Source of the DNA: a virus
Lineage: Duplodnaviria > Caudoviricetes
Length of the DNA stretch: 58,208 bases
Strand: one strand, 5' to 3'
Virus record (IMG/VR): IMGVR_UViG_3300036945_000096
Location: 1-58,208 of that record
Position numbers and translations under genes: made by a program. A model generated the notes under the pieces. The model did no database searches. It had not been told where the DNA came from and worked only from the letters and a program-made list of their open reading frames with translations. Each line of letters opens with the position of its first letter. Position 1 is the stretch's first letter. Shown here piece after piece: positions 1,374 to 57,551 of the stretch.

Positions 1374-2084
1374 ATGTCTACATACATTTCTTTAACGAAT
1401 GAATTGCTACGAAGAATGGGTGAGGTCATTATGGACTCCACCGAATTCGACAATGCTAGAAACATCCAAGCTCTAGCAAAGAATGCTATCAATTCATCCA
1501 TTAGAGAATTGATGCACTCCGCACAAGAATGGCCTTTTGCTTTAGCTACCCAGACCCAGACATTAACTGTTGGTACAGGTACATATAGTTTTCCTTCTAA
1601 TACGTCCACTGTAGATTGGGATTCTTTCTATTTAAAGAAACTTACTGCAGCTAACAATCAGCCTTCTCGTCTTGCTGTTCTTACTTACACTGACTACCTG
1701 AACAATCATCGTCCTCAGGAAGATGTTAATGGTACTGGTGGGTATGGTCCTACCATTGCCGTATATCAAACACAAGAGTCTAAGTTTGGTGCTACTCCTA
1801 TTCCAGATCAAGCGTATGAGATTGAATATAAGTATTGGTCTTTTCCTGCTGACTTAGTTGAATCTACTGATGTAGCTATTATTCCAGACAGATTTACTAA
1901 TGTATTAATTGATGGTGCTATGTTCTACATGCTGATGTTCAGATCTAATGAACAAGGTGCAGCAGTGTATAAAGACAAGTTTGATACTGGTATTAGAGCG
2001 ATGCGAAGACTGTTGCTAGATGAGCCTCTGTATATGAGTTCTACAGCATCTATTAGCCCATCATTCCATCCTAGAGTGTTTTAA
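1374..2084 (+). CDS. Tail tubular/adaptor protein A-like
   Basis: Synteny; N-terminal Y..L.N..L.R.GE and WPF motifs of podoviral adaptors. Confidence 0.7.
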   Translation: MSTYISLTNELLRRMGEVIMDSTEFDNARNIQALAKNAINSSIRELMHSAQEWPFALATQTQTLTVGTGTYSFPSNTSTVDWDSFYLKKLTAANNQPSRLAVLTYTDYLNNHRPQEDVNGTGGYGPTIAVYQTQESKFGATPIPDQAYEIEYKYWSFPADLVESTDVAIIPDRFTNVLIDGAMFYMLMFRSNEQGAAVYKDKFDTGIRAMRRLLLDEPLYMSSTASISPSFHPRVF

Positions 2085-5928: not shown

Positions 5929-6282
5929 ATGGCAGCACCTAATATCGTAAACGTGGCAACTATCACTGGTAAAACAGCGGTTCAAGCTATTGGCACTTCA
6001 GCTACAGCAATTGTTACAAACTCTGCTGCTAGTGGTAAGGTTTTTAAAATCAATGCCCTTTACGTTTCTAACGTAGATGGAACTGCTAACGCAGATGTAA
6101 CAGTAGATTTATTCCGAAGTTCAACTGCTTACCGAATTGTTTCTACAGTGGTCGTTCCTGCAGATGCAGTCTTAGATGTAATAACTAAGGCATTCTATTT
6201 AGAAGAAGGTGACACCTTGCGTTTAACAGCAAGTGCTGCTAGTGACCTTGAGGCTGTTTGCTCATATGAGGAGATTTCCTAA
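5929..6282 (+). CDS. Small virion protein (fibre-associated); resembles 49911-50246
   Basis: RBS GGAGG; shared ..YLExGD.(L/I)R..AS motif. Confidence 0.6.
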   Translation: MAAPNIVNVATITGKTAVQAIGTSATAIVTNSAASGKVFKINALYVSNVDGTANADVTVDLFRSSTAYRIVSTVVVPADAVLDVITKAFYLEEGDTLRLTASAASDLEAVCSYEEIS

Positions 6283-7196
6283 TGGCTCAATTTCCAGCAA
6301 GTACAGGTGCAAGCGGAATATGGTCTGTTAAAGACCAGAGGGTTGCTCAACAAGGTTTAAACTGGCCTCGAACTACAGTAGCTTTGACTGCTGAGGTGTT
6401 AATCGTAGCTGGCGGTGGTGGTGGAGGAACTGAGCGTGGTGGTGCTGGCGGTGCTGGCGGTTATGTTTATAACGCTTCTTTATCTTTAGTAACTTCTGCT
6501 TTGTATGTTGTTACTGTGGGTGCGGGTGGCTCTGGGGCTATTGGTAATTCATCTACAGGCACTAGGGGAACTAGCGGTAGCAACACTACATTTTCTTCAA
6601 TGACTGCTGCTGTTGGTGGTGGTCGTGGTTCAGCTAGGGCTGGTGGTAACTATGCTGCGGCATCTGGCGGCTCTGGTGGTGGTGGTGGCCCTGATACTAC
6701 AACGGCTGGTGCTGGCACATCAGGACAAGGTTTTGCTGGCGGTGCTGGTCAGTATGGCGGTGGTGGCGGTGCGGGTGCTGTTGGTACAGCTGGAAGTTCA
6801 GGTGGTAATGGCGGTGTTGGTATTTCAACATACAGTACTTTGCTTGGAGTAGTTGGTGCTGGAGAAAACTCAGGAGGGACTCGTTATATTGGTGGCGGTG
6901 GTAGTGCTCCGGGTGATGATGGCACTGGCGCAAAAGCTGGCGGTCTTGGTGGTGGTGGTAGAGCTATGAGTAATAGCAACGCAATCGATGGATATGCAAA
7001 CGCAACTGCAAATACCGGAGGCGGTGGTGGTGGAACTTATGACCAAACTACTTTAGCTGCTGGTAATGGTGGTTCTGGTACTGTAATTATTAAAAGCGCA
7101 ACTCAAGCATATGCAACTACAGGAACAGTTACGGAAACAAATACTGGTGGTTTCTATTACTACTATTTTACGACTACTGGCTCTATTACATTCTAA
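6282..7196 (+). CDS. Glycine-rich tail/receptor-binding protein
   Basis: VAGGGGGG...GGAGG...NTGGGGGG...GGSG.VII glycine-rich domain. Confidence 0.75.
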   Translation: MAQFPASTGASGIWSVKDQRVAQQGLNWPRTTVALTAEVLIVAGGGGGGTERGGAGGAGGYVYNASLSLVTSALYVVTVGAGGSGAIGNSSTGTRGTSGSNTTFSSMTAAVGGGRGSARAGGNYAAASGGSGGGGGPDTTTAGAGTSGQGFAGGAGQYGGGGGAGAVGTAGSSGGNGGVGISTYSTLLGVVGAGENSGGTRYIGGGGSAPGDDGTGAKAGGLGGGGRAMSNSNAIDGYANATANTGGGGGGTYDQTTLAAGNGGSGTVIIKSATQAYATTGTVTETNTGGFYYYYFTTTGSITF

Positions 7197-13847: not shown

Positions 13848-14156
13848 ATGTTACCAGCTTCTCTAAGTATTATTGGCAGAGAAGTGCCGATTAGAGTTGT
13901 AGATGTATTCCCAGAACAACTGGGAGAGTACAGCTATGACGATTATGCAATTAAAATAAAGTCTGGTCAGCACCCCTTAGCGGAGGCAGATACATTGTTA
14001 CATGAATGTATACACGCTATAGACGACTGCTTCCAATTAAAACTGTCAGAGAGACAGGTGTATTGTTTAGCTGTTGGAGTGTTAGCACTCTTAAGAGATA
14101 ACAGAGATATGCTTGCCTATTTAACTGAAGCAATAGAGAAACCAAGAAACATATGA
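13848..14156 (+). CDS. Small HExxH zinc metallopeptidase-like protein
   Basis: TLLHECIHA and downstream E (LSERQV). Confidence 0.7.
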   Translation: MLPASLSIIGREVPIRVVDVFPEQLGEYSYDDYAIKIKSGQHPLAEADTLLHECIHAIDDCFQLKLSERQVYCLAVGVLALLRDNRDMLAYLTEAIEKPRNI

Positions 14157-16579
14157 AAGATTTTACAGCACAACAAAAGGAAGTCGTAGCTAGGAAGCTA
14201 GGATACGATGGTCCTATGCAAGGCTTTGATGAGTTTATCTCATCTTCTCCTGCATTGGAGGCTAAGTATGCTGCCATCTCTGGTAAGTTCGTTGAGCGTA
14301 TGGCTAAGGGCGGGGCTGTTACTGGTATGAAGTTTGTAGCTGGTGGCACAACACCAGACTACGAACAGATTGTTAGAGATAACTATGCTGCTATTGGTAA
14401 GACTGGTATTGGTCAGGGATCTAACAACATTGATCCTGAAGGATTTAAAGGTTGGGTTAATGATTTAAAAACAGGAGTAGTTACTCCTGAGAAATTCGAG
14501 CAAAGATTTACAAATGCTGTATCAGATTACATAGCAGAAAAACCTACTGATAGGCACACAGAATATGTTCTAGATTATCTGGCTAATAAAAATAAAGTAG
14601 TTACAGGAGGTGTTACAAAAGCTGGTAGTGTCACTCTTGGTGCAGATGGTAAACCTACAGTAGGAGATGCTGCTCAAGTGACAGCAGCACAGGTTACTAC
14701 CAATGAAAATCAAAACGTAGATACTGCTAACAGAGCAGATGATAATGCTAACACAGCACAGGGTGCTACTGCTATTAAAGCAGAAACTGCTGCTGCTCCC
14801 ACTGCTGCTAAAGCTTCTACATATCAAGCACAGCAAACTGCTGAAGATGTAGCCCTTCTATTAAAGGGTGTTTCTCCAGCAGTTGGTACTGTGGGTGAGT
14901 CTAGCAAAGTGGCTGCACAGACAGTGGAGCCAACAAAGACAGCACTAGCTGACCTTGCTCCTGCAGCCCTTGCTAAAGCTCAGACTGTTGAGGGTGCTCC
15001 TACTAGAGCACTACAAGAAGGCGAACAAGTATCTGCTGCTGTTGATGCTGCTAGGGCTGAAGCAACTGCTAAGGCTACAGAAGCTGCTGCTGCTCAAGGC
15101 ACAGTGACAGAAGACATGACTGTTCAAGGACAGCTTGCTAAGCTCACTGCCAACTTCGATGCTAAGAACCCACCTTCATGGGCTGCTGGTGCTCTTAGAG
15201 AAGCTACTGCTGTAATGGCAGCTAGAGGTCTTGGTGCTTCTAGCTTGGCTGGTCAAGCCATAATTCAAGCTACCCTTGAGAAAGCTCTGCCTATTGCCAC
15301 TGCTGATGCAGCCATCTTCCAGCAGATGGGATTACAGAACCTATCTAATAAACAACAAACTGCTGTGCTTGCTGCTCAGCAACGGGCTGCTTTCTTGGGA
15401 CAAGAGTTTGATCAAACCTTCCAAGCAAGAGTTACTAATGCTGCTAAGATTTCTGACATTGCCAACCTCAACTTTACAGCAACACAGCAAATTGCTTTAG
15501 AGAATTCTAGGATGGCACAGACAGTTGATCTGGCTAACTTGAGTAATCAACAAGCTGCTATCATGGCTTATGCTGCACAGGTAGCAAACCTTGAGGTTAC
15601 TAATCTAACCAACAAACAACAAGCTGCTGTTGTTAATGCTCAAGCCTTCTTACAGATGGACTTAGCTAACTTGACTAATCAGCAACAAACAGTGCTGTTC
15701 AAGACACAACAGATGACAACTTCATTGTTATCTGATTCTGCTTCTATGAATGCTTCTCTGCAGTTTAATGCTGCAAGTACAACACAAGTGGATCAGTTTA
15801 ACAGTACATTGTCTACGCAGGTTACACAATTCAATGCCACTCAGAAGAATGCCATTGCTCAGTTTAACACTGACCAAGAGAATGCACTGTCTAAGTTTAA
15901 TGCTGAAGTGCAGAACCAACGTGATACTTTCAATGCTACACAACGATTGGTTATTGATCAGTCTAATGCTCAGTGGCAAAGAGAAGTTGCTACAGCTAAT
16001 ACAGCAGCAACAAATGCAGCTAACAATTTAAATGCTCAGTTGTCACAGAACATGACACTGGCTGAGTACAACAATGAGACACAGCTCTATAGAGACAATG
16101 TTTCATTTGCTTGGCAAGCGGGGCAGAATGATTTAGATAGAGCTAATAAGTTAGCGGTGTCTGAGATAAGTGCTTCTGCGGGAGTAAAAACAGCAAATGC
16201 TACAGCAAAGAATAATTTAATAACTACAGGTGCTAAAGCAGCAGCTATGTTCTTACTTGGATCTGATGAACGAATGAAAAATATACAAGGTCCTATTACC
16301 AATGCTCTAGATAAGATTAAACAAATTGGGGGATACTCTTACACTTACAAAGTAGAGGTAGAGCCTTTTGGTTATGATAGTACAACTACTACAATGGGTG
16401 TATTAGCTGGAGAAGTTAAGAAAATATTACCACATGCTGTTGTGCCAACATCATTTAATCCTAACTTGGATATGGTGGACTATGCAGCAGTTAACGGATT
16501 GTTAGTGGCTGCAGTTAATGAACTCATCACTAAGGTTGATTTACTTTCTACACGATTGAATGATCTGGAGAAGAAATAA
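14153..16579 (+). CDS. Internal virion/ejection protein with C-terminal peptidase S74-like domain
   Basis: A/Q/N-rich helical body; SDERMK...GVLAGEV..ILP.AV...VDY C-terminus. Confidence 0.7.
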   Translation: MKDFTAQQKEVVARKLGYDGPMQGFDEFISSSPALEAKYAAISGKFVERMAKGGAVTGMKFVAGGTTPDYEQIVRDNYAAIGKTGIGQGSNNIDPEGFKGWVNDLKTGVVTPEKFEQRFTNAVSDYIAEKPTDRHTEYVLDYLANKNKVVTGGVTKAGSVTLGADGKPTVGDAAQVTAAQVTTNENQNVDTANRADDNANTAQGATAIKAETAAAPTAAKASTYQAQQTAEDVALLLKGVSPAVGTVGESSKVAAQTVEPTKTALADLAPAALAKAQTVEGAPTRALQEGEQVSAAVDAARAEATAKATEAAAAQGTVTEDMTVQGQLAKLTANFDAKNPPSWAAGALREATAVMAARGLGASSLAGQAIIQATLEKALPIATADAAIFQQMGLQNLSNKQQTAVLAAQQRAAFLGQEFDQTFQARVTNAAKISDIANLNFTATQQIALENSRMAQTVDLANLSNQQAAIMAYAAQVANLEVTNLTNKQQAAVVNAQAFLQMDLANLTNQQQTVLFKTQQMTTSLLSDSASMNASLQFNAASTTQVDQFNSTLSTQVTQFNATQKNAIAQFNTDQENALSKFNAEVQNQRDTFNATQRLVIDQSNAQWQREVATANTAATNAANNLNAQLSQNMTLAEYNNETQLYRDNVSFAWQAGQNDLDRANKLAVSEISASAGVKTANATAKNNLITTGAKAAAMFLLGSDERMKNIQGPITNALDKIKQIGGYSYTYKVEVEPFGYDSTTTTMGVLAGEVKKILPHAVVPTSFNPNLDMVDYAAVNGLLVAAVNELITKVDLLSTRLNDLEKK

Positions 16580-18714: not shown

Positions 18715-21700
18715 ATGGCTAACGAATTTGATCTGTTTACTTCAGCCCCTACGGGGGCTTCTGTTTCACCTGTACAGGATGAGTTCTCTTCCTTTGTTAC
18801 TCCGACAACACCACCCCCTAAAAAAGATGAGTTCTCTTCTTTTGCTGCAACAGCCTCTGCTCCAGTGTCTGAGAAGCCAGCAGAAGATTTAACTAACCCT
18901 GCTTTCATTGCTCCTCGACAGAGAGCTACGAAGTTGGTGGAGAGGGCAGCAACTATTAAAGAAGAAGAAGCAAAGAAGATTCCTTTCGATGATTTGTGGA
19001 AAGATAATAACAACTACAAAGTCATTCAAGAATATGCTCTTGCTAGATTTGGACAACAAGAAGGCACTCCCAGAAAAGGAGAAACAAAGCAAGACTTTGT
19101 TAATCGCTTTGCTACGCACATGCGTATGCTAGATACTGGCAATGAGTTTAATAGTGTTGGTGAGTTGCAGTATTTAAACAATGCTAAGAGAGAAGACATT
19201 CTTAAAGCAGGTGCTGCCTATGATTTGTTTAAGAACACTGCTGGTGTGTTCGATGAACAGAACAGAGGACAAAAAGGATTCCGTCCTGTAATGGATGTGT
19301 TGTCTAGCATTATCAGTAGTCCATCTACTGCATTGACACTTGGTGTAGGTAAAGTTGCTACTAGTGGTTTAACAAAACTGATAGCAGAGAAAGGCACTAA
19401 AGCTGCTCTTACTTCTGCTAAGGGTGTCGGTATGGCAACAGCTACACCAGCCGTTAGTGCTGCTACAACAGCAGCACAAGATGCTGTAGCACAGAAGATT
19501 GAGTTAAATGTAACACAGGCTGAGTTTGATCAAGCAAAGAAGATTGATCCAAAGACACTCACTGAAGAAGGACAGAAACAACTTCAAGCTTACATTGATG
19601 ATAGACAAAAGAAACTAGAAGAAGGTGTCAGTGGTAAGCGTCTAGCTTTAGCTGGTGCTATTGGTGCTGTAACAGAGACAGCAGAAGTGTTACCTTTTCT
19701 TCGTGGTGTAGGTAGGAAAGCAGGTACTAGCCAACTAGATGAAATCCTTAAAACTAGAAGAGCACCAGCTACAGGGGAAACACCAGCACCTAAGGTTGAA
19801 GTAACAGCTAAAGACCCAACAGAAAAAGCATTAGAAGATTCTTACGATATCTTTGAAGGACGTAGGCTTCTTGATGAGCAGGGCCAACCAACATCTGTAG
19901 CACAGATGGAAGTTAGAAACGATCTTAATAAGAGAGCTACATTAATTGCTCAAGACATATGGAAACAGATTCCTGAGTTTGCTCCTCAAGCTACAGAGAA
20001 AGTGTCTGATGCTATTAAGCGTACACTTGAATCTGTAGATACCTTTGATGATGTTGTGTTTGAAAGAGCATTGGCATCTGCTGATGTAACACCTGATGAG
20101 TTTGCTAAGATGTTTAGAACATCTGTTGGTGATGCTGCTCGTTCTTTACAGAGCTTGTCTGTTGTTGCTCGTCTGCAAAACAAACTGAAGAACATTGATC
20201 CTGCTGCTGCTGCAGAATTGAACAAGATGTATGGTGATAGAAGTGCTATCACTTCAGCCTTCACTGGAGTCAGAGACTTTGGTATGCGTCTTGATAGAGA
20301 ACTGAAAGCCTTGATGGTGTCTCAGATTGCTACCACCATTCGCAATGCTTTCTCTGGTGTTTCTGTTATTACATTTGGAACAGCAGCAGAGGCTATTGAA
20401 TCTACTTTATATCGAGTGGGTAAGACAGTAGGTGAACTTACTACAGGTAAACCTGTCACTGGTAGTTTCACTGGTGGTATCAAAGGCATCTATGCTGATT
20501 CTGTTCGCTCTGCTTTCTACTTAGGACAAAGAGAGTTGTCTGCTGATGTAACAGATGCTTTACTCAGTGGTACTCCAGCCTTGTATAGAAAGATGGTTAA
20601 GACAACAGGTGAAGCTGGTCCTAATGATTTGTCTAAGGCAGCACAAATTGCTAATACATTTAACGTAGCTCAAGATGCTTTCTTCCGTAAAGCTATGTTT
20701 ACTTCCTCGGTAGAGAAGCAACTTAGCCGTGTTGGTATTGACATGTATGATGTTATTGCACAAGGTAAGCAAGTACCTTTTGATGTGTTACAGAATGCTG
20801 TTAATGAAGCACTCACTGGTACATTCAGTAAGATGCCTACCAAAGGTCCCATGTTCCATGCTGTAAAGTTTATTGAAGAGCTTGGTCCTATTGGCTCTAC
20901 ATTTATACCTTTCCCACGCTTCATGGCTAACGCTATGGAATGGACATATAAGCACATGCCTACTGGTGCGTTATCTGGCAGCGTAGACATAGCTGCTGGC
21001 TTAACTAAGATGGCTAAGGGCGAAGCTGACATGGGAACTAAGCAAGTTACTATGGGGCTTGAGAATTTATCTAAAGGTGCTGTAGGCACTGCTGCTTTGT
21101 ATGCTGCCTTTAAATATAGACAAGAAAATCAAGACACTGAGTGGTACAACATAAAGAATCCTGATGGCTCAACTGTAGATGCTAGAGCGTTGTTCCCTGC
21201 TGCTCCTTTCCTTGCTTTGGGTGATTATATTGTTAAGTTTCAGAATCAAAGAACAGATGAATTCAAGACAAAAGAATTCTTAGAAGCTATGATTGGTTTC
21301 AAAGCACCAGCAGGTACATACTCATGGCTTGGTGATAAGTTTGCTGAGGCCCAATCAAATGCAGCAACAGGCGAAGACACAGCAGATAACAAAGTTAAGA
21401 CATTCTTTGGTGAGTGGGTGGGTGAATACTTAGGTAGAGCACTTGTTCCTTTCCAACAGATCAGCGATATTGTTGGTGCTATTGATCGCAATGAAACACT
21501 GCCTAGAGATGCTTATCAGATTCCAGCGGGTGAAGAAGGATTTACTTCTTCAGCTAAACAGCAATTGATAAAGCGTACTCCTATATTGAAACAAGAGTTG
21601 CCTGTATATCAACCACCACTCAGAGAGACAGCAGCATTTAATGACAATGGTCCATTGAAGATGTTGTCTGGTATTGCTATTAAAGGTGTTCCTTCTGTAT

Positions 21701-48104: not shown

Positions 48105-48497
48105 ATGGCTACCGATGCAGAGAAAGTAAAGATGTACCGAGAGAAGGCTAAGGATGAGTCTATCCCTCAAGAGGTGCGTAACACCTACTTGGATAGGGCT
48201 AATGAGCTAGAGCGTAAAGCTTATGAAGCCACTAAGGGTACTCCTCCAGCTAAGCTGGCTAAAGGTGGTATGCCTGTAAGAGGTAGCCGTACAGCCACTA
48301 ACAAAGAGAAGAAGATGATGGGTGGTGGTTATGCTATGCCAACAAAGAAACCATTGATGGCTAAAGGAGGAGCTGTTAAAGCTGCTGCTGCTAAGAAGCC
48401 TGTGGTTGCCATTATGATTGGTATGGCTAAGCCAACTAAAGCTCCTATGAAGAAGGCCATGAACACAGGTGGTATGGCTAAAAAAGGTAAGTGCTGA
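48105..48497 (+). CDS. Lys-rich protein with repeated GG motifs
   Basis: AAGGAG RBS; LAKGG, MMGGG, MAKGG, MNTGG. Confidence 0.75.
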   Translation: MATDAEKVKMYREKAKDESIPQEVRNTYLDRANELERKAYEATKGTPPAKLAKGGMPVRGSRTATNKEKKMMGGGYAMPTKKPLMAKGGAVKAAAAKKPVVAIMIGMAKPTKAPMKKAMNTGGMAKKGKC

Positions 48498-50255: not shown

Positions 50256-50624
50256 ATGGCTAAAAGAGAACTAAGCGAACAACAGAAAAAATTCATTGAG
50301 GTGTTATTTACCGAGGCTGGGGGCAATCCTCACAAGGCTAGACAGCTTGCTGGCTACAGCGAAGGCTACAATACCAAAGTCCTTATGGAAGTTCTTAAGG
50401 AAGAAGTGATTGAGGCTACACAGCTTTACATCGCTATGAATGCTCCTAGAGCAGCTATGGCTGTTGTCAGTGGCATTTCCGATCCTACAGAGCTAGGCTT
50501 GAAAGAGAAGCTTAACGCTGCTAAGGATTTGTTAGACAGGGCTGGTTTGGTGAAGACAGAGAAAGTTCAGGTGACAGCACCTAACGGCATTATGATTTTG
50601 CCAGCCAAAGACAGCGGTGAGTGA
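50256..50624 (+). CDS. Terminase small subunit
   Basis: L.E.Q.KF...A..AGYS HTH, AA..LLDRAG; upstream of TerL. Confidence 0.8.
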   Translation: MAKRELSEQQKKFIEVLFTEAGGNPHKARQLAGYSEGYNTKVLMEVLKEEVIEATQLYIAMNAPRAAMAVVSGISDPTELGLKEKLNAAKDLLDRAGLVKTEKVQVTAPNGIMILPAKDSGE

Positions 50625-51099
50625 TAGAGACTTAGGGGCTTGGATACTTCCCCAACCGAAAGCAAAGGAAACATATGTACCTATCCCAAAAATTAGAAAA
50701 ACTATACCATTTGGTTACAGACAAGATGAAGAAGACCCTAACCTTTTGCAGCCAATACCTACAGAGCTTGAAGCGTTAGAACTAGCTAAGAAACATTTAA
50801 AACAATATAGCTCTAGGCAGGTAGCAGCTTGGCTTACCACCACAACAGGTAGAACTATAAGCCATGTGGGATTGTTAAAGAGAATAAAGACTGAAAGAAC
50901 TCATGGACGAAAATCCGCTACTTACCGCAACCTTGCCACAAGGCTCAAAAAAGCCCTTGAGCAAGCGGAAAGGTACGAAGAAAAATCCAAGAGGCTCGGC
51001 AGGGAAGACCAAACAGGATACTTCGAGTCAGAACAGTACAGCAAGCTCTCCGAATATATCGATAGTAAACTCGCCAGAGATTCCTCTAGCGACACCTGA
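50617..51099 (+). CDS. DNA-binding protein with recombinase-like PFGY/HTH domain
   Basis: IPFGY...E...L...S.R.VA.WL...GR.ISH.GL. Confidence 0.6.
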   Translation: MSDRDLGAWILPQPKAKETYVPIPKIRKTIPFGYRQDEEDPNLLQPIPTELEALELAKKHLKQYSSRQVAAWLTTTTGRTISHVGLLKRIKTERTHGRKSATYRNLATRLKKALEQAERYEEKSKRLGREDQTGYFESEQYSKLSEYIDSKLARDSSSDT

Positions 51100-52498
51100 T
51101 GATAGGGAAGTATTGTTTAAGCCCAATCCGGGGCCACAAACATTCTTCTTAGCTTCTTCAGAGAGAGAAGTTTTATATGGTGGTGCTGCTGGAGGTGGTA
51201 AAAGTTATGCCATGCTTGCAGATCCGCTTAGGTATATGGTACATCCACAGTTTTCTGGGCTTCTGTTACGACACACTACAGAAGAACTTCGAGAACTTAT
51301 TTGGAAGAGTCAAGAGCTTTATCCAAAGATTTATCCCGGCATCAAGTGGAGTGAGAGAAAGATGCAATGGGAAGCTCCGTCAGGTGCTAGACTGTGGATG
51401 TCCTACCTTGATAGAGATGAAGACGTACTGAGATATCAGGGTTTGGCGTTTAGCTGGATTGGTTTTGATGAGTTGACGCAGTGGCATACGCCATTTCCGT
51501 GGAATTATATGCGTTCTCGACTGCGTACAGCAGCGTCAGACCTACCAATCTTCATGAGAGCTACTACCAATCCGGGTGGTCCGGGTCATGCTTGGGTGAA
51601 GAAGATGTTTATTGACCCTTCTCAAGCGGGTAAAGCCTTTGATGCCACTGATATTGAGAGTGGAACCACCTTAGTGTATCCCAAAGGACACAGTAAGGAG
51701 GGGCAAGCACTGTTTAAGCGTAGGTTTATCCCTGCTATGTTGACAGATAACCCCTATTTGATGCAAACTGGTGACTATGAGACTATGTTGTTGTCTCTTC
51801 CTGAGCACCAAAGGAAGCAACTACTAGAGGGTAACTGGGATATTGCTGAAGGTGCAGCATTCCCTGAGTTTAATAGGCAGATACATGTGGTAGAACCATT
51901 CCACATACCGAGTAATTGGACTAAATTTAGGGCTTGCGACTATGGATACGGAAGTTATAGTGCTGTGGTGTGGTTTGCTGTGTCTCCAAGTGAGCAATTG
52001 GTGGTCTATCGTGAGCTATATGTTAGCAAAGTGCTTGCCAAAGACCTCGCTCACATGGTGATGAGGGCTGAGGAGAACGATGGCCCTATGAGATATGGGG
52101 TGTTGGACAGTAGTTGCTGGCATAAGCGTGGTGATACAGGTCCATCACTGGCAGAACAGATGATTGCAGAGGGCTGTAGGTGGAGGCCGTCTGATAGAAG
52201 TGCTGGAAGTAGGGTGGCGGGTAAGAATGAGCTGCACAGAAGGCTACAACTTGACCCCTTTACAGAACAGCCAAGACTAGTTATAACAAGCAACTGTGTA
52301 AACACGATTGCTCAGCTACCCATCATACCTTTGGACAAGAGAAACCCAGAGGATATTGATACTAAGGCTGAAGATCACTTATATGATGCTATTCGGTATG
52401 GAGTGATGAGCAGACCTAGAAGTAGTTTGTTCGATTACAATCCATTACATTCTGCTGGAGCTGGTATGAAGACAGCAGACCCAGTATTTGGGTATTAA
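50903..52498 (+). CDS. Terminase large subunit (start uncertain)
   Basis: GPQ..F, YGGAAGGGKS, FDE, TNPGG, DYG, DH.YDA.RY. Confidence 0.95.
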   Translation: MDENPLLTATLPQGSKKPLSKRKGTKKNPRGSAGKTKQDTSSQNSTASSPNISIVNSPEIPLATPDDREVLFKPNPGPQTFFLASSEREVLYGGAAGGGKSYAMLADPLRYMVHPQFSGLLLRHTTEELRELIWKSQELYPKIYPGIKWSERKMQWEAPSGARLWMSYLDRDEDVLRYQGLAFSWIGFDELTQWHTPFPWNYMRSRLRTAASDLPIFMRATTNPGGPGHAWVKKMFIDPSQAGKAFDATDIESGTTLVYPKGHSKEGQALFKRRFIPAMLTDNPYLMQTGDYETMLLSLPEHQRKQLLEGNWDIAEGAAFPEFNRQIHVVEPFHIPSNWTKFRACDYGYGSYSAVVWFAVSPSEQLVVYRELYVSKVLAKDLAHMVMRAEENDGPMRYGVLDSSCWHKRGDTGPSLAEQMIAEGCRWRPSDRSAGSRVAGKNELHRRLQLDPFTEQPRLVITSNCVNTIAQLPIIPLDKRNPEDIDTKAEDHLYDAIRYGVMSRPRSSLFDYNPLHSAGAGMKTADPVFGY

Positions 52499-52507
52499 AG
52501 GGTATTT

Positions 52508-54607
52508 ATGGCGACAAACAATTTTATGGATGACAAGTCCATTGGTTTAGGGGATAAGAAGGAAGGCGAGGCTGCACCATTTACTGGTGATAGCCTCTTA
52601 GCTTTTCTAAACGATAGATACACCAAGTCTGAAGAGAGTCGCAGACAAGATGAACAGCGTTGGCTGAAGGCTTACAGAAACTATCGTGGTCTATATGGAC
52701 CAGATGTTAAATTCACTGAGACAGAAAAGAGCAGAGTGTTTGTTAAAGTGACAAAGACCAAGGTGCTTGCAGCATATGGTCAAATCACTGATGTGTTATT
52801 TGCTAATAATAGATTTCCCTTAAGTGTTGATCCAACTGTATTGCCAGAAGGTGTAGTTGATTCAGTACATATGGATCCTAAGGCTCCAGAAGATGCTGAG
52901 CCTGAAGTTGTTTCTCCCTTTGGATATAAAGGAGATGGTAAAGATTTACCTCCCGGTGCAACCTATGCCAGTTTGATGGATAGACTTGGACCACTGAAGG
53001 ACCAACTTAAAGATGCTAAGAATTTAAAAGAAGGTCCGGGTGTTACACCTACCTCTCTTACATTCCATCCTGCTATGGTGGCAGCTAAGAAGATGGAGAA
53101 GAAGATACATGACCAGTTGGATGAGAGTGGTGCTAACAAGCATCTCCGTTCCACTGCCTTTGAGATGGCTCTGTTTGGTACAGGCATCATGAAGGGTCCA
53201 TTTGCTAAGACCAAAGAATATCCTAGCTGGGATGATGAAGGTACTTACAAGCCTGAGATGAAGACAGTACCAGAGACATCACATGTTTCTATCTGGAACT
53301 TCTATCCTGATCCTGATGCTTCCAACATGGAAGAGGCTCAATATATTATTGAGAGACACAAGCTGAGTGCTACACAACTTAGGGCTTTGAAGAATCGTCC
53401 TTTGTTTAGAAACAATGTTATTGAAGATGTCATTGCTGAAGGTGCTTCTTACACTAAGAAGTATTGGGAAGATGACTTGAGAGACTATGCTCCCAACTTG
53501 GGAGTAGATAGATTTGAAGTGTTGGAGTATTGGGGCAATGTTGATATTGACATGCTCAAAGAAAACGACATTGATATTCCTGAAGCTTTGTTGGAAGTTA
53601 AGGAGTTGCAAGCCAACGTATGGTTCTGCAACAACAGAGTGATTCGCTTAGTATTGAATCCGTTTAAGCCAGCCAACATTCCGTATTACGCTGCTCCTTG
53701 CGAACTAAACCCCTACTCTCTATTTGGCATTGGTGTTGCCGAAAACATGGACGACACCCAGACCCTCATGAATGGTTTTATGCGTATGGCTGTAGATAAT
53801 GCAGTGTTGTCTGGCAACCTTGTATTCGAGGTTGATGAAACCAATCTCGTTCCCGGTCAAGACATGACAGTGTTTCCGGGTAAAGTGTTTAGGAGACAGG
53901 GTGGTGCTCCCGGTCAGTCTTTGTTTGGAACACAGTTTCCGAATGTGGCTGCACAGAACTTGCAACTGTTTGATAAGGCTAGACAATTGTCAGATGAATC
54001 AACAGGTATGCCTTCCTTCTCACATGGTCAAACAGGTGTTAGTGGTGTAGGCAGAACAGCCTCTGGTATTTCTATGTTGATGAATGCTGCTTCTGGTAGT
54101 GTTAAAACCATCATCAAGAATGTGGATGATTACTTGTTGGCCCCACTTGGTAAAGCTTTCTTTAGCTTTAACATGCAGTTTGATTTTGATAGATCTATCA
54201 AAGGTGATTTGGAAGTTACAGCCAGAGGAACAGAGAGCTTGATGGCTAATGAGGTGAGGAGCCAACGCTTGATGCAATTCTTGCAGATTGCTAGTTCTCC
54301 AGCATTGATGCCGTTTGCTAAGTTCCCTTACATCATTCGTGAGATAGCAAAGAGTATGGACTTAGATCCAGACAAGGTGACTAACAATATGGATGAGGCT
54401 TTGCGTCAAGCTTTACTGATGCAGCAAGCTACAGCTCCTGCTGCTCCGGCAGAGGGTGCTCCTCCAGTTGGTGGCCCAGAAGGTGGTCCTCCTCCAGTAT
54501 CTGATATGACTGGTGGTGGTGGTGGAAATATCGGTGTTGGTGCTGCACCAGTACCGGGTGAACAAGGATTTGCTGGTAATGTCCAAGCTGTACCTCCCCA
54601 AGCTTAA
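52508..54607 (+). CDS. Portal protein
   Basis: 699 aa after TerL; FGTG..KG, NFYPDP, RTASG.SML motifs. Confidence 0.92.
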   Translation: MATNNFMDDKSIGLGDKKEGEAAPFTGDSLLAFLNDRYTKSEESRRQDEQRWLKAYRNYRGLYGPDVKFTETEKSRVFVKVTKTKVLAAYGQITDVLFANNRFPLSVDPTVLPEGVVDSVHMDPKAPEDAEPEVVSPFGYKGDGKDLPPGATYASLMDRLGPLKDQLKDAKNLKEGPGVTPTSLTFHPAMVAAKKMEKKIHDQLDESGANKHLRSTAFEMALFGTGIMKGPFAKTKEYPSWDDEGTYKPEMKTVPETSHVSIWNFYPDPDASNMEEAQYIIERHKLSATQLRALKNRPLFRNNVIEDVIAEGASYTKKYWEDDLRDYAPNLGVDRFEVLEYWGNVDIDMLKENDIDIPEALLEVKELQANVWFCNNRVIRLVLNPFKPANIPYYAAPCELNPYSLFGIGVAENMDDTQTLMNGFMRMAVDNAVLSGNLVFEVDETNLVPGQDMTVFPGKVFRRQGGAPGQSLFGTQFPNVAAQNLQLFDKARQLSDESTGMPSFSHGQTGVSGVGRTASGISMLMNAASGSVKTIIKNVDDYLLAPLGKAFFSFNMQFDFDRSIKGDLEVTARGTESLMANEVRSQRLMQFLQIASSPALMPFAKFPYIIREIAKSMDLDPDKVTNNMDEALRQALLMQQATAPAAPAEGAPPVGGPEGGPPPVSDMTGGGGGNIGVGAAPVPGEQGFAGNVQAVPPQA

Positions 54608-54812: not shown

Positions 54813-56567
54813 ATGATGGGGTTGGCAACACAGTTAGCAAAAGCTGGAGTAAAGAAAGCAGCTAAATCATCTTCTTCATTAACAGACTTAGTAAAAAATA
54901 ACTCTGTTGCTAAGTCTAAAGAGATAACTCCACAAGAAATTACTGAGTATATTAAGACAACACTTATACCAAAAAAAGAAAGCGATAAAAATTTTAAGTC
55001 TAAGTTCAAAGACACTACAGTTGTAGATGAGAAGAATAAACCCCGTGTGATGTATCACGGAAGAAATAAAGATTTTGAAAGTTTTGATACTGGTAATGTT
55101 AAAACAGATACACAAGAAATTGGGACACACATAGGCACTGCAGATCAAGCTAATGAGTTTGCTACTAGAGAAGGTGGTAATGTTGTGCCAACATATTTAG
55201 ATGTAAAGAACCCATTGAGATTAAATGATTATGGTAGTTTTGGTAGTGGTGAAGTATTAGAGCAGTTGAGATCAACAGGAAAGTTTAATGAAGACCTTCT
55301 TGATGAAATAGAAAATATACCTTCTATTGTTGAACGGAATAAAGCTGTTGTTGATTTAATTAAGAGTGATGGCTATGACGGAATTGTTTATCTTAATAAG
55401 AGAGAAGGTCTAAATCTAAAAGGAACAGAGAAACAGAAATCTGAAAAGATTGATGAACTTCAAGACTATGATGATGGAACACTAATAAAAAAGTATGGAG
55501 CAAAAGACTCCTACATAATTTTTGATCCCTCCCAAGCAAAATCTATTTTTAATAAAGGATCGTGGAGTGGATCGGATGATAGACTTAACTACAATAAAGG
55601 TGGCACTGTGAATGATATGAATAGACTGTTCGCTGAAGGCGGCATGAATGAAGAAGGTGGTACAGTAGATCCTGTATCTGGTAACGAAGTACCTGCTGGT
55701 TCTTTACAAAAAGAAGTTAGAGATGATATTCCTGCTCAGCTTAGCGAGGGTGAGTTTGTTCTTCCTGCTGATGTTGTTAGGTATATTGGCTTAGATAGGC
55801 TAATGAAGATTAGAGACAAGGCTAAAGAAGGCTTGGCTCGTATGGAAGAGATTGGTCAAATGGGCAATGCTGAACAAGCAGAAAGCCCAGAAGAACCACA
55901 TGGTGATGAGTTTGCTTCTGAGATTGATAGCATCATGAGTGAGCTGGATAGTGAAGGTGGAGAGAACAACTTAGCTGTTGGTGGTATGCCTACACCTAGT
56001 ACTGGCTTTCAAGTAAAACAGTTTAAGAAGCCTGATGGTAGCTCTATGTTTGTTACTTTCATTAATGGTGAACCAGCTACTACTATTCCAGAAGGTGCTC
56101 AAGAAGTAAACATTGCCAATCAAGCACAGAAAAATCAAGCATCTTTAACACCAACTGAAAAAGCAGTGAGCAATAAAACAAATATTGTTGATACGTTATT
56201 TTCTACTCCTGAAGAGGACAATAAGCGTATGGATAAAATGTTGTTTGATAAGATTGCTGAGAAGATGATAGAGAGGCAAAACAAAAAAACAATTAATGAG
56301 AATATTGAGTTTGATCCAAATGCTTTCAAATCAACAGACTCAGAACTTTTTAATTTCTCAGAAGCTGCTGACTATCGATTGACAGATGGTATGGAAGACA
56401 CTATGTTATCTGGGGCTATGAATGAAGCCGCTGCTCCTGTAATTCCTGAGATGCCCGTTGGCTCGGACACTATGCCAGATATGTCTTCTACAATGCCTGA
56501 TGTTTCTGCGATTGGTCCTGAGCTTGCTATGGCTAAAGGTGGCCTACTTACAAGACGTAAGAAATAA
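54813..56567 (+). CDS. Multidomain head-module protein: ART-PolyVal-like domain + DDIPAxLSEGEFV domain + acidic tail
   Basis: YHG...F..F...YL..KNPL...GYDG....Y..F.P.Q.KS; DPVSGN...DDIPAQLSEGEFV; four GG motifs. Confidence 0.7.
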   Translation: MMGLATQLAKAGVKKAAKSSSSLTDLVKNNSVAKSKEITPQEITEYIKTTLIPKKESDKNFKSKFKDTTVVDEKNKPRVMYHGRNKDFESFDTGNVKTDTQEIGTHIGTADQANEFATREGGNVVPTYLDVKNPLRLNDYGSFGSGEVLEQLRSTGKFNEDLLDEIENIPSIVERNKAVVDLIKSDGYDGIVYLNKREGLNLKGTEKQKSEKIDELQDYDDGTLIKKYGAKDSYIIFDPSQAKSIFNKGSWSGSDDRLNYNKGGTVNDMNRLFAEGGMNEEGGTVDPVSGNEVPAGSLQKEVRDDIPAQLSEGEFVLPADVVRYIGLDRLMKIRDKAKEGLARMEEIGQMGNAEQAESPEEPHGDEFASEIDSIMSELDSEGGENNLAVGGMPTPSTGFQVKQFKKPDGSSMFVTFINGEPATTIPEGAQEVNIANQAQKNQASLTPTEKAVSNKTNIVDTLFSTPEEDNKRMDKMLFDKIAEKMIERQNKKTINENIEFDPNAFKSTDSELFNFSEAADYRLTDGMEDTMLSGAMNEAAAPVIPEMPVGSDTMPDMSSTMPDVSAIGPELAMAKGGLLTRRKK

Positions 56568-56687: not shown

Positions 56688-57551
56688 ATGACAGAAGCGG
56701 TAATTAATCAGAATCAACAAGCTCAGGCTTTTTCTCCCTTTGGTAAGCGTAATGCTAACAAGGATAAGATTGAACAAGAAGAAGCAGAGTTGAAACAAAT
56801 GGCTGAAGATAAGAACAAAGAACCACAGGAAGCACAAGAACCTGAGGACAGTTCTTTAAACGCAGAAGAAAAAAGCTTTAAGAAGCGTTATGGAGATCTG
56901 CGTAGACATTCTCAGCAACAGCAAACTACTTTGCAGAAGCAGATTGATGAGCTACGCTCACAGCTTCAGCAGAGTACAGAGAAACAAATTAGTCTTCCTA
57001 AGAGTGAGGAAGAACTAGCTGAGTGGGCAAAGACCTATCCTGATGTTGCAAAGATTGTTGAAACAATTGCAATTAAGAAGGCTAAGGAACAAACCCAAGC
57101 ATTGGATGAGAGATTCAAACAGCTAGATGAGAGGGAGAATAAGACATCTAAAGATAAGGCAGAGGCTGAATTGATGCGTTTGCATCCAGACTTTGATGTT
57201 ATCCGTGATGATGATGACTTCCACAACTGGGTTGAAGAACAACCTAAATGGATTCAAGATGCTTTGTATGACAATGAGAGCGATGCTAAGGCTGCTGCCC
57301 GTGCCATCGATCTTTACAAAGCTGATAAAGGTATTAAGGTTAAGAAATCTACTGCAGATAAAGGTGCTGCTGAAAGCGTAAACACCCGTAGTAGTCGTTC
57401 TGCACCTACAGGCGAGAGCACAGATGGTGTCTTTTATGAGTCACAGGTAAGCAAAATGTCTACCTTTGAGTATGAAAAGAACCAAGAAGCTATTGCTAAA
57501 GCATTACAATCAGGTAAATTTGTATACGATATTAGCGGAAGTGCTCGTTAA
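56688..57551 (+). CDS. Capsid scaffolding protein
   Basis: Acidic coiled coil, KKRYGDLR, HPDF; directly upstream of the capsid gene. Confidence 0.8.
   Translation: MTEAVINQNQQAQAFSPFGKRNANKDKIEQEEAELKQMAEDKNKEPQEAQEPEDSSLNAEEKSFKKRYGDLRRHSQQQQTTLQKQIDELRSQLQQSTEKQISLPKSEEELAEWAKTYPDVAKIVETIAIKKAKEQTQALDERFKQLDERENKTSKDKAEAELMRLHPDFDVIRDDDDFHNWVEEQPKWIQDALYDNESDAKAAARAIDLYKADKGIKVKKSTADKGAAESVNTRSSRSAPTGESTDGVFYESQVSKMSTFEYEKNQEAIAKALQSGKFVYDISGSAR

What the first reader, a model, noticed from the sequence alone, without database searches (positions are those of the whole stretch)
55629..55985. DDIPAQLSEGEFV domain in the prohead-protease gene slot, itself flanked by GG motifs
Seen: a roughly 110-aa segment (DPVSGNEVPAG...DDIPAQLSEGEFVLPADVVRYIG) bounded by FAEGG and LAVGG, in a gene between portal and scaffold. 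I recognise no classical prohead protease elsewhere. From memory, a similar FAxGG...D.IPA.LS.GE.V string occurs at tape-measure C-termini. Inference: this is the GG-recognising (auto)protease or binding module.
Basis: inference. Interest (0 to 1): 0.75.

Follow-up and report, generated by a model that had tools for sequence, protein, structure and literature searches.

The report
Tape-measure-like carrier module, not a protease
The flagged segment is a very conserved, mostly unfolded module that sits in a phage head gene behind a swappable effector enzyme and also occurs near the ends of tail tape-measure proteins, so it looks like a carrier or anchor for proteins shot into the host, not a protease.

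Summary
Residues 273-391 of a 584-aa protein (54813-56567, +) run exactly from FAEGG to LAVGG and contain DDIPAQLSEGEFV. The gene lies between portal and scaffold-like genes of a complete HMO-2011-type podophage.

The protease reading is not supported. The AlphaFold2 model shows loose helices, coil and one hairpin (pLDDT 63, pTM 0.22). There were 0 fold matches and 0 PDB sequence matches. No candidate catalytic residue is kept in the wider family.

What is there is a modular protein:
- an N-terminal ART-PolyVal ADP-ribosyltransferase;
- a junction ΦAKGG motif;
- the core, with about 34 invariant columns;
- a hairpin;
- a C-terminal MAKGG plus basic tail.

The core family is huge (3001 cluster representatives). 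Its gene slot is fixed: portal upstream in 65 of 66 loci, scaffold or capsid downstream in 40 of 40. In 97 of 268 members a variable N-terminal cargo precedes it.

The central 36 residues match GG-flanked modules of tape-measure proteins (hhalign 97.5%). By eye, a like module lies in lambda gpH, within the part that a paper assigns to the C-terminal fragment cut off by an unknown mechanism.

Best reading: an anchoring and ejection module that carries effectors. Whether the GG motifs are docking motifs or cleavage sites stays open. None of the eight peptidase families searched matched the genome.

The parts
54813..56567 (+). Whole gene, 584 aa: modular virion-cargo protein in the portal-to-scaffold slot
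   Evidence: ORF list and translation. Among the 80 best IMG/VR loci, a portal homologue lies upstream in 65 of 66 with enough sequence, and a scaffold or capsid homologue lies downstream in 40 of 40.
55026..55562 (+). N-terminal cargo, aa 72-250: ART-PolyVal ADP-ribosyltransferase domain
   Evidence: Pfam PF18760, E 4.4e-15, 57.1 bits against a cut-off of 31.2. Separate tblastn hits of this part occur in Caulobacter, Tenacibaculum, Tunturiibacter and F116 phages.
55590..55604 (+). Junction motif YNKGG (aa 260-264) between cargo and core
   Evidence: The corresponding GG is at least 90% conserved in 55 cargo-bearing representatives. The commonest start of cargo-less homologues falls at this point.
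55629..55643 (+). FAEGG (aa 273-277), the upstream flank named in the finding
   Evidence: G22 is invariant and G23 at least 90% conserved in alignment A1. Φ-x-x-G-G is present upstream in 265 of 268 members.
55638..55868 (+). Conserved core, aa 276-352, holding the 34 invariant columns (GNEVP.G..EV.DD..A.LS.GEFV.PADV.R..GL..M..R..AK.GL..M..GQM.N)
   Evidence: Alignment of 40 sequences. 6679 relatives and 3001 representatives of 50% clusters.
55716..55823 (+). Tape-measure-like motif, aa 302-337 (VRDDIPAQLSEGEFVLPADVVRYIGLDRLMKIRDKA)
   Evidence: hhalign of A1 against the tape-measure module alignment A3: probability 97.5%, E 5.2e-12, 36 columns. 43 of the 46 listed non-HMO-2011-type tblastn rows lie in tape-measure genes.
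55908..55952 (+). Acidic helix, aa 366-380 (FASEIDSIMSEL...)
   Evidence: Helix 112-126 of the model. F113 and D118 are at least 90% conserved.
55971..55985 (+). LAVGG (aa 387-391), the downstream flank named in the finding
   Evidence: G137 is at least 90% conserved. Φ-x-x-G-G is present downstream in 249 of 251 members.
56007..56063 (+). Small beta hairpin, aa 399-417, the best-predicted part of the model
   Evidence: Strands 145-151 and 157-163. Block pLDDT of 75-88 over model residues 141-176. Conserved in most full-length homologues.
56529..56567 (+). C-terminal MAKGG followed by the basic tail LLTRRKK, then the stop codon
   Evidence: A C-terminal Φ-x-x-GG-Φ plus a basic tail occurs in 174 of 268 family members. 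The 1835-aa protein ends alike, in KFNKGGLASRK.
14153..16579 (+). 808-aa virion protein with N-terminal MAKGGAV...FVAGGT and a C-terminal Peptidase_S74 chaperone domain
   Evidence: The same N-terminal tandem motif is present in HMO-2011 gp25 and the ctYwJ313 863-aa protein.
18715..24222 (+). 1835-aa giant protein with internal YAVGG and YALGG motifs and a C-terminal FNKGGLASRK
   Evidence: No Pfam or PHROG family matched. The ctYwJ313 counterpart has NFNKGGLATQMQ at residue 1203 of a 1219-residue ORF.
48105..48497 (+). 130-aa Lys/Ala/Pro-rich protein with 3-4 ΦAKGG-type motifs
   Evidence: An orthologue with two MAKGG motifs is present in ctYwJ313.
52508..54607 (+). Portal protein (SU10-type), the upstream neighbour
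   Evidence: PF23899, 4.5e-25; phrog_332, 6e-79.
56688..57551 (+). Scaffold-like protein, the downstream neighbour. The name rests on its position only.
   Evidence: phrog_13678 (unknown function), 1.6e-59. It is 57-63% identical to the gene in the same position of HMO-2011, CRP-1 and ctYwJ313.

Best explanation
The segment is the conserved carrier module of a virion-packaged cargo protein.

The protein is built as a string of parts:
- a swappable N-terminal effector, here an ART-PolyVal ADP-ribosyltransferase;
- a ΦAKGG junction;
- a roughly 75-residue core that is hardly folded on its own;
- an acidic helix;
- a second ΦAxGG;
- a small hairpin;
- a C-terminal ΦAKGG plus a basic tail.

I infer that the core folds only on a partner. 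It would anchor the protein in the procapsid at or near the portal channel during head assembly, and let it leave through that channel ahead of or with the DNA, carrying the effector into the host. This is the same job that the homologous GG-flanked module would do near the distal end of tape-measure proteins.

On this reading the ΦAxGG motifs are integral parts of the module, acting as docking strands or hinges. Cleavage at them is possible but not required.

Shown: the anatomy, the conservation, the synteny, the variable cargo, the tape-measure homology and the lack of a protease fold. Inferred: packaging, the partner, and ejection.
For: (1) No enzyme-like fold. The AlphaFold2 model has pLDDT 63 and pTM 0.22, and the conserved DDIPAQLSEGEFV stretch is coil. 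Foldseek against PDB gave 0 matches at E<=0.001. PDB sequences gave 0 at E<=10.

(2) The segment is nevertheless extremely conserved: 34 invariant columns in 40 sequences, 29 in 55 cargo-bearing representatives, and 3001 cluster representatives at E<=0.001.

(3) It belongs to the head module.
- A portal homologue lies upstream in 65 of 66 loci, and a scaffold or capsid homologue downstream in 40 of 40.
- The core is 65-71% identical to HMO-2011, CRP-1 and ctYwJ313. This is like TerL (71-74%), portal (67-72%) and capsid (72-88%).
- The tail-side and giant proteins reach only 21-78%.

(4) The N-terminal cargo varies.
- The core starts within 40 residues of the N-terminus in 157 of 268 members and after residue 100 in 97 of 268.
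- Among 55 cargo-bearing representatives, Pfam names only Phage_L5_gp82 (2), ART-PolyVal (1), LPD23 (1), methyltransferase (1-2) and HNH (1).
- The window's cargo is ART-PolyVal. A paper predicts this class to be packaged and injected (PMC5512222, passages read).

(5) The module is shared with other proteins that leave the virion.
- hhalign against tape-measure modules gives 97.5%, E 5e-12.
- With a nominal database of 1e6, the core HMM gives GMA4 tape measure 1.2e-4, phiE125 tape measure 5e-3 and F116 p58 0.02, among 1996 ORFs.
- F116 p58 lies just upstream of the two large genes p59 and p60, which that paper treats as the F116 counterpart of the internal-virion-protein-D homologue H66 gp60 (PMC4819975, passages).
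- Tape-measure C-termini sit in the tail-tip hub and are needed to start tail assembly (PMC5099701 and PMC12617516, passages).

(6) The upstream FAEGG is kept even in members with no cargo. This fits a function of its own better than a mere cargo-release site.
Against: - No partner was identified.
- No proteomic or structural data for any HMO-2011-type virion were found. Two searches were made, and passages of two papers from those listings were read.
- Pfam Phage_Mu_F, the known occupant of this kind of slot, does not match, so the MuF/gp7 analogy rests on position only.
- Podophages have no tail-tip hub, so the partner cannot be the same as for tape-measure proteins.
- The alignment of tape-measure modules was built partly from sequences found by searching with the core, which inflates the hhalign figure. 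Lambda gpH was added by eye and was not reported by the HMM.
- Several features hint at processing, which this reading does not need: the tidy placement of ΦAxGG at every module border, the match between cargo-less N-termini and the junction GG, and the position of the lambda module beside an unexplained cleavage.
Confidence: 0.55

Rival explanations
1. The ΦAxGG motifs are maturation cleavage sites cut by a protease that is not this domain. The protease would be an unrecognised phage enzyme or a host one. The core would be the retained fragment, and the cargo and the basic C-terminal tail would be released after GG.
For: - The motifs sit at every module border of the protein.
- In 70 of the 72 cargo-bearing members that could be measured, 8-9 residues separate the junction GG from LFAEGG. 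In 75 of 143 cargo-less members the first Met lies 9 residues before it. A cut after the junction GG would therefore give the cargo-less form.
- The motif is concentrated in four virion-side proteins: 12 of the 14 hits, against 2.9 expected genome-wide.
[quoted passage not shown] By eye, the lambda module at residues 731-785 falls within that span.
- From recall only, not from any call: adenovirus protease sites have the form (M/L/I)xGG|x, and some lie in basic core proteins.
Against: - None of the 8 peptidase families searched gave a match in the complete genome: Prok-JAB, S78, ClpP, C39, C48, C5, S77 and S49. None appeared in the 31 window proteins scanned against Pfam.
- Cargo-less members keep FAEGG at their very N-terminus.
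- A cut after the N-terminal MAKGG of the 808-aa protein would detach its first 57 residues, for no evident reason.
- The one tape-measure cleavage mapped to a residue, in T5 pb2, is after R1127 and not after GG (PMC10038345, passages).
- HMO-2011 and CRP-1 carry the core without proteome-wide enrichment of the motif: 5 hits against 2.4 expected, and 2 against 2.6.
Confidence: 0.22
2. One reading: the core is itself the GG-specific protease or a self-cleaving element, and in tape-measure proteins it would account for gpH-type processing.
For: - The core and its two GG flanks travel together in podophage proteins and in tape-measure proteins.
- A paper says it is unknown how lambda gpH is cleaved (PMC12617516, passages). 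By eye, the lambda module lies within the C-terminal fragment described there.
- The core has invariant Asp, Ser, Glu, Arg and Lys within the podophage family.
Against: - There is no globular fold or cleft and no fold or sequence match to any solved protease.
- Across the six tape-measure and F116 modules only glycines are invariant. The Ser of LS is present in 3 of the 6, and Asp and Glu are not universal.
- The residue after GG is M, T, L, A, V, F or Y in the copies seen, never a Ser, Thr or Cys nucleophile as in known self-cleaving motifs. The rule about nucleophiles is from general knowledge.
- A segment of about 75 residues is small for a protease.
Confidence: 0.06
3. The module acts on the host side after ejection. 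It would bind a component common to diverse hosts, such as the cell wall or membrane, or help build the channel across the envelope. It would not anchor the protein inside the virion.
For: - The module occurs in phages of Actinobacteria and Proteobacteria and in all three tail types, so no single virion partner is shared.
- Tape-measure proteins with the module also carry or adjoin wall-degrading functions: GMA4 has an SLT domain, and Brent's tape-measure gene is followed by LysM and hydrolase genes.
- Lambda gpH* forms at least a major part of the periplasmic channel (PMC12617516, passages).
Against: - Its conservation tracks the head module and its gene position is fixed next to the portal. 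This points to a role in assembly.
- It resembles no known wall- or membrane-binding domain.
Confidence: 0.12

Closest known systems
C-terminal GG-flanked module of tail tape-measure proteins (phiE125 gp15, Arthrobacter phage Brent gp17, Gordonia phage GMA4 Orf16; by eye also lambda gpH residues 731-785)
   Same: The layout is the same: ΦAxGGΦ, then D.IPA.LS.GEFV.....V..G plus a short helix, then ΦAxGGΦV. The profile-profile match is 97.5%. Both kinds of protein are expected to leave the virion at infection.
   Different: In tape-measure proteins the module lies at the end of a long coiled protein in a tail gene cluster. Here it lies in a head-module gene of a podophage, behind an effector domain. 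The podophage core is longer, with an extra GNEVPAG half-repeat, a long helix ending in GQMGN, and an acidic helix. No curated family covers either version.
MuF / SPP1 gp7 minor head proteins with fused effector or toxin domains
   Same: The gene position is comparable, next to the portal gene in the head module. Both join a conserved head-associated part to variable effector domains predicted to be injected (PMC5512222, passages).
   Different: There is no sequence relation: Phage_Mu_F does not match. The statement that MuF proteins carry their effector at the C-terminus is from recall. Here the cargo is N-terminal.
Polyvalent proteins of phages and conjugative elements (Iyer et al. 2017), including ART-PolyVal carriers
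   Same: The N-terminal domain is ART-PolyVal. One relative carries LPD23, a polyvalent-protein domain. The gene lies among virion genes.
   Different: Polyvalent proteins are described there as having 2 to 15 domains in one polypeptide (PMC5512222, abstract start in the listing). This protein has one recognisable effector plus a carrier.
Phage T4 Alt (packaged, injected ADP-ribosyltransferase)
   Same: Both would be an ADP-ribosyltransferase delivered from the head with the DNA (PMC5512222, passages).
   Different: Alt belongs to the R-S-E clade, whereas ART-PolyVal has an H-Y-D active site (same paper). That T4 targets Alt by a short N-terminal sequence removed by the prohead protease is recalled, not checked here. 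None of the prohead protease families searched (S78, S77, S49, ClpP) matched this genome.
Adenovirus-type maturation at (M/L/I)xGG|x by a packaged cysteine protease (recalled, not from a call)
   Same: The motif has a similar shape, and one carrier is a small basic protein, the 130-aa protein at 48105-48497.
   Different: Neither Peptidase_C5 nor C48 matches the genome. No cleavage has been shown.

Membership tests
Pfam PF18760 ART-PolyVal (N-terminal domain of the same protein) | Profile match above the curated cut-off | tested here: met
   57.1 bits against a cut-off of 31.2, E 4.4e-15, residues 72-250 covering profile positions 1-138 of 140.
Pfam PF18760 ART-PolyVal | Active-site His (strand 1), Tyr (strand 2) and Asp (strand 5), as described in PMC5512222 | not tested
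   The residues were not mapped onto the window protein.
Prohead and maturation proteases (S78 HK97-type, S77 T4-type, S49, ClpP) | Profile match of the segment, or of any gene in the genome | tested here: not met
   0 matches at E<=1 in the complete genome for PF04586, PF03420, PF01343 and PF00574. The target protein has no peptidase hit at E<=0.1.
GG-specific peptidases (Prok-JAB, C39 double-glycine, C48 Ulp1, C5 adenain) | Profile match anywhere in the genome | tested here: not met
   0 matches at E<=1 for PF14464, PF03412, PF02902 and PF00770.
Any protease (as a fold) | Compact fold with a catalytic cleft, and a structural neighbour among solved proteases | tested here: not met
   pTM 0.22, with helices and coil. 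Foldseek against PDB gave 0 matches at E<=0.001, with a best TM of about 0.1. The model is of low confidence, so this is weak negative evidence.
MuF / SPP1 gp7 (Pfam Phage_Mu_F) | Profile match | tested here: not met
   No hit in the protein or in the genome.
MuF / SPP1 gp7 | Binds the portal and is packaged in the head | not testable with these tools
   No portal complex was folded. Only the position of the gene is analogous.
Tape-measure GG-flanked module (no curated family) | Motif D.IPA.LS.GEFV.....V..G flanked on both sides by ΦAxGG | tested here: met
   hhalign 97.5%, E 5.2e-12, 36 columns. The flanks are seen in phiE125, both GMA4 copies and lambda. Caveat: part of the comparison set was chosen by similarity to the query.
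Tape-measure protein (as a whole) | Long helical protein encoded between tail chaperone and tail-tip genes; TMP Pfam domains | tested here: not met
   The gene lies in the head module of a podophage. No TMP_2, TMP_3, TMP_4 or Tape_meas_lam_C hit. phrog_3547 matched only over the module (8e-05).
Polyvalent proteins (Iyer et al. 2017) | 2 to 15 domains in one polypeptide, encoded among virion or transfer genes | tested here: inconclusive
   One effector domain is recognised. It lies in a virion gene context. One relative carries LPD23.

The most novel reading that the evidence does not exclude
The ΦAxGG - D.IPA.LS.GEFV - ΦAxGG unit is an ancient processing cassette shared by podophage head-cargo proteins and by tape-measure proteins of sipho- and myophages. 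Cutting would occur at the GG motifs, either by the cassette itself once assembled or by an unrecognised GG-specific enzyme. This would release effectors and basic tails in HMO-2011-type phages. It would also explain the long-unexplained cleavage of lambda gpH into gpH* and its C-terminal fragment.
Probability: 0.12. Interest if true: 0.85.

Novelty: new variant of a known kind. Interest (0 to 1): 0.55.

Why it matters
A paper on the first HMO-2011-type isolate is titled as showing the prevalence of this phage type in the oceans (recalled, not read). Here the core has 3001 cluster representatives, yet this head gene is annotated 'hypothetical protein' in all 23 phage records that the first search hit.

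Reading it as a carrier with exchangeable N-terminal cargo gives a handle on which effectors these phages inject. Most of that cargo is unknown: Pfam named a family in only a handful of 55 representatives.

The link to the C-terminal region of tape-measure proteins, by eye including lambda gpH, also gives a concrete, mutable motif. With it one can test how tape-measure C-terminal fragments are anchored or cut. A 2025 paper on lambda states that this is unresolved (PMC12617516).

Tried and rejected
- Homo-oligomer fold: three copies of aa 255-430 with alignment A1 gave 'no answer' (score 0.00 in both runs, controls not folded). It says nothing either way.
- No complex with the portal, or with a MAKGG-bearing protein, was folded.
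- Earlier findings of this scan: nothing by place or by sequence.
- ESM Atlas: the nearest clusters are unnamed viral proteins. The nearest named cluster is the crAss cargo protein 1 domain at 0.84, which is under the level that counts. By structure, two tape-measure-related clusters appear at TM 0.32-0.37. These are leads only.
- Further copies of the core in the window: the HMM found none besides the target (next best E 0.28 with Z=1000). 'ISGKFV' and 'ISGEF' strings that I saw by eye next to GG motifs in the 808-aa and 1835-aa proteins are therefore not claimed.
- A lambda gpK JAB-type peptidase as the GG cutter, an idea from recall, was rejected for this phage because there is no Prok-JAB match.
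- Literature:
  - No paper found by the two HMO-2011 searches and read in passages (PMC4819975, PMC6918029) discusses this gene.
  - The search on tape-measure processing and the passages of PMC13243795 gave nothing on the motif.
  - The phi24B preprint has nothing on GG motifs.
  - Supplementary files of these papers were not opened. Virion proteomics tables there could bear on packaging.
- I make no claim that the module is absent from print beyond these searches.
Full report
**What is in the sequence.** The window is a complete virus record of 58,208 bases with direct terminal repeats. Its head genes run as follows:
- small terminase, 50256-50624;
- large terminase, 50903-52498;
- a SU10-type portal, 52508-54607;
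- the target gene, 54813-56567;
- a scaffold-like gene, 56688-57551;
- the major capsid gene, from 57820.

The head genes are 57-88% identical to those of Puniceispirillum phage HMO-2011, Roseobacter phage CRP-1 and the uncultured freshwater podophage ctYwJ313. This is therefore an HMO-2011-type podophage.

The target protein has 584 residues. The finding's coordinates are exact: nt 55629 is the first base of F273 in FAEGG, and nt 55985 is the last base of G391 in LAVGG. DDIPAQLSEGEFVLPADVVRYIG lies between them.

**Anatomy of the protein.**
- Residues 72-250 are an ART-PolyVal ADP-ribosyltransferase domain (PF18760, 57 bits against a cut-off of 31).
- The junction YNKGG follows at 260-264, then FAEGG at 273-277.
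- The conserved core reaches to about residue 352.
- After it come an acidic helix (366-380), LAVGG (387-391) and a small hairpin (399-417).
- A poorly conserved stretch follows.
- The protein ends in AMAKGGLLTRRKK.

**The family.** The core has 6679 relatives among proteins of similar length. It has 3001 representatives of 50%-identity clusters at E<=0.001, of which 763 reach 1e-30.

An alignment of 40 members has 34 invariant columns between G276 and N352, in the pattern G..VP.G..EV.DD..A.LS.GEFV.PADV.R..GL..M..R..AK.GL..M..GQM.N. An alignment of 55 cargo-bearing representatives has 29.

- the core starts within 40 residues of the N-terminus in 157, between 41 and 100 in 14, and after residue 100 in 97;
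- Φ-x-x-G-G precedes the core in 265 of 268;
- Φ-x-x-G-G follows it in 249 of the 251 whose match reaches the end of the model;
- 174 of 268 end in Φ-x-x-GG-Φ plus a basic tail.

Many of the remaining members are contig-end fragments or, like HMO-2011 gp49 and CRP-1 gp49, end in a different Cys-containing domain.

The N-terminal cargo is diverse and mostly unknown. Of 55 cargo-bearing representatives, Pfam names Phage_L5_gp82 in 2. It names ART-PolyVal, LPD23 and HNH in 1 each, and two methyltransferase families in 1 each.

**Gene position.** In HMO-2011, CRP-1 and ctYwJ313 the gene with the core lies between the portal gene and the scaffold-position gene.

I also examined the 80 best IMG/VR loci, which is a set biased towards closer relatives. 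A portal homologue lies upstream on the same strand in 65 of the 66 loci with at least 2.5 kb upstream. A scaffold or capsid homologue lies downstream in 40 of the 40 with at least 4 kb downstream.

The core is 65-71% identical across the four phages. This matches the terminase, portal and capsid proteins. The tail-side and giant proteins reach only 21-78%.

**Is it a protease?** The evidence says no.
- AlphaFold2 on residues 255-430 with the 40-row alignment gave mean pLDDT 63 and pTM 0.22. It showed helices at model residues 13-21, 45-50, 65-93 and 112-126, and one hairpin at 145-163. The most conserved stretch was coil.
- Foldseek against PDB gave no match at E<=0.001, with TM about 0.1.
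- A profile search of PDB sequences gave none at E<=10.
- When the tape-measure relatives are included, only glycines are invariant, so no catalytic set survives.
- The residue after GG is hydrophobic or Thr-like in the copies seen, with no Ser or Cys nucleophile pattern.

The model is of low confidence. The structural argument alone is therefore weak, but all lines agree.

**Is there another protease?** No match was found in the genome for Prok-JAB, S78, ClpP, C39, C48, C5, S77 or S49. None appeared among the 31 window proteins scanned against Pfam. About 20 further ORFs, mainly the early genes on the minus strand, were not scanned against the whole library.

**The GG motifs.** The pattern [FLMIVYW][AN]xGG[FLMIVYTAD] was counted in ORFs of at least 80 codons and compared with 100 residue shuffles.

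| Genome | Hits | Shuffle mean |
|---|---|---|
| Window | 14 | 2.9 +/- 1.7 (max 7) |
| ctYwJ313 | 15 | 3.0 |
| HMO-2011 | 5 | 2.4 |
| CRP-1 | 2 | 2.6 |
| T7 | 3 | 1.6 |
| P22 | 1 | 1.8 |
| F116 | 6 | 6.9 |

Some ctYwJ313 hits are an unrelated ANGGT fibre repeat.

Twelve of the window's 14 hits lie in four proteins:
- the target;
- an 808-aa protein with an N-terminal MAKGGAV...FVAGGT;
- the 1835-aa giant, which ends in FNKGGLASRK;
- a 130-aa Lys/Ala/Pro-rich protein.

The N-terminal tandem motif of the 808-aa protein is also present in HMO-2011 gp25 and in the ctYwJ313 863-aa protein, but not at that place in CRP-1 gp35.

Proteome-wide GG enrichment thus accompanies the core only in the window's own lineage. 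The GG flanks of the core itself are near-universal.

**A detail that bears on processing.** In cargo-bearing members a further ΦAKGG lies 8-9 residues before LFAEGG, in 70 of the 72 that could be measured. Thirty-two others were mis-anchored by my pattern, and 6 had no earlier GG. In cargo-less members the commonest start places Met1 9 residues before it (75 of 143; the others are spread from 1 to 24).

The border between cargo and carrier is therefore the junction GG. This fits a cut after GG, and it fits equally a recombination joint between modules.

**The tape-measure link.** A tblastn search with residues 280-372 at E<=1 found 78 phage records. Of the 60 rows listed, 14 are HMO-2011-type phages. 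Of the other 46 rows, 43 lie in tape-measure genes. Three of those 43 are labelled only gp14 or gp15 in the GenBank twin of a RefSeq record that names the tape measure. The remaining 3 rows are hypothetical proteins, two of them in pelagiphages. Eighteen further records were not listed.

The positions in the proteins I located are as follows:
- phiE125 gp15: residues 1236-1277 of 1354;
- Arthrobacter myophage Brent gp17: 771-808 of 876;
- Gordonia phage GMA4: 979-1046 of 1760, with a second copy near 1290.

These modules are themselves flanked by ΦAxGG. Examples are HLATGGAV...FAAGGLV, YLASGGPV...FASGGAV and RFATGGYV...LAAGGVV.

With a nominal database size of 1e6 and 1996 ORFs searched, the core HMM gave these values:
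- GMA4 tape measure, 1.2e-4;
- phiE125 tape measure, 5e-3;
- F116 p58, 0.02;
- Brent tape measure, 0.39.

F116 p58 has two tandem copies at its N-terminus, followed by FFADGGVV.

Profile-profile comparison of the core alignment with a six-row alignment of these modules gave 97.5% probability and E 5.2e-12 over 36 columns. Part of that set was picked by similarity to the query, which flatters the figure.

Pfam has no family over the module. Tape_meas_lam_C ends at lambda gpH residue 701 and phiE125 residue 1185.

**Lambda.** By eye, gpH residues 731-785 have the same layout: FHFATGGF...GEFVFTKEATSRIGVGNLYRLMRGYATGGYV. The sequence aligns with the other modules, but the HMM did not report it.

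A 2025 paper (PMC12617516, passages read) states the following:
- gpH is cut in the glycine-rich region near its C-terminus into gpH* and a fragment of about 14 kDa, about residues 690-853;
- how the cut is catalysed and where exactly it falls are unknown;
- residues about 690-817 of the fragment are unresolved;
- residues 818-849 bind gpI.

By these coordinates the module lies in the unresolved part of that fragment. In T5 the tape measure is cut after R1127 (PMC10038345, passages), so GG is not a general tape-measure cleavage rule.

**Interpretation.** The best-supported reading (0.55) is a carrier or anchor module. It is highly conserved and disordered on its own, it is tied to the head module, and it is fused to exchangeable effectors. 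It is related to a module of other proteins that sit in the DNA exit path and leave the virion at infection.

Its position recalls the MuF/SPP1 gp7 class of portal-adjacent head proteins that carry effector domains (PMC5512222, passages), but Phage_Mu_F does not match. Packaging, the partner and ejection are all inferred.

The rivals are:
- GG motifs as cleavage sites of an unidentified protease (0.22);
- a host-side role after ejection (0.12);

**Novelty.** Virion-packaged effector carriers are a known kind. This carrier module has no curated family in Pfam, and none of the papers whose passages I read describes it. Its kinship with tape-measure C-terminal modules is a new connection as far as those searches go. 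I rate it a new variant of a known kind, with interest 0.55.

Noticed in passing
window 57820-58208 and 3-809: The major capsid gene runs across the ends of the record. Mapped on HMO-2011, the two pieces overlap by about 120 nt, so the record's terminal repeat lies inside this gene. The record is probably a circularly permuted assembly and does not show true genome ends.
   Followed up: partly
window 48105-48497: A 130-aa Lys/Ala/Pro-rich protein carries LAKGGM, MAKGGA and MNTGGM (plus MMGGG). An orthologue with two MAKGG motifs is present in ctYwJ313. It looks like a basic internal or DNA-associated protein. No family matched.
   Followed up: partly
window 14153-16579; L004 22504-24624; L006 15863-18454: The 808-aa protein family keeps an N-terminal helical stretch of about 50 residues followed by tandem MAKGGxV...ΦxxGGxV in the window, HMO-2011 gp25 and ctYwJ313. 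Only the window's copy ends in a Peptidase_S74 chaperone domain.
   Followed up: partly
L003 5022-7166 (CRP-1 gp49); L001 4995-7280 (HMO-2011 gp49): Marine versions of the core protein carry LDDDIPFG or PDGIPFG just after the GQMGN helix. By eye this resembles the acidic C-terminal tail of bacterial SSB. It was not tested.
   Followed up: no
L009 30674-32701 (F116 p58): The podophage F116 protein just upstream of the two large genes p59 and p60 has two tandem copies of the motif at its N-terminus, followed by FFADGGVV. A paper reports no identifiable internal virion protein A or B candidates for the F116 group (PMC4819975).
   Followed up: partly
L012 1067-6349 (GMA4 tape measure): This tape-measure protein holds two GG-flanked copies of the module, near residues 979-1046 and about 1290-1324, upstream of an SLT transglycosylase domain.
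   Followed up: partly
window 6282-7196: A 304-aa protein is very rich in glycine runs (Pfam Gly_rich_2, 4e-21). It accounts for 28 of the 117 GG dipeptides counted in the window's proteins and is unrelated to the ΦAxGG motif.
   Followed up: no
window 1374-2084 and 52508-54607: The adaptor and portal match the SU10 (elongated-head coliphage) families PF24175 and PF23899. The neck of HMO-2011-type phages is therefore SU10-like.
   Followed up: no
L002 7955-8524 (ctYwJ313): In ctYwJ313 a gene annotated with an HNH-type endonuclease motif sits between the scaffold-position gene and the capsid gene. It has no counterpart at that place in the window.
   Followed up: no
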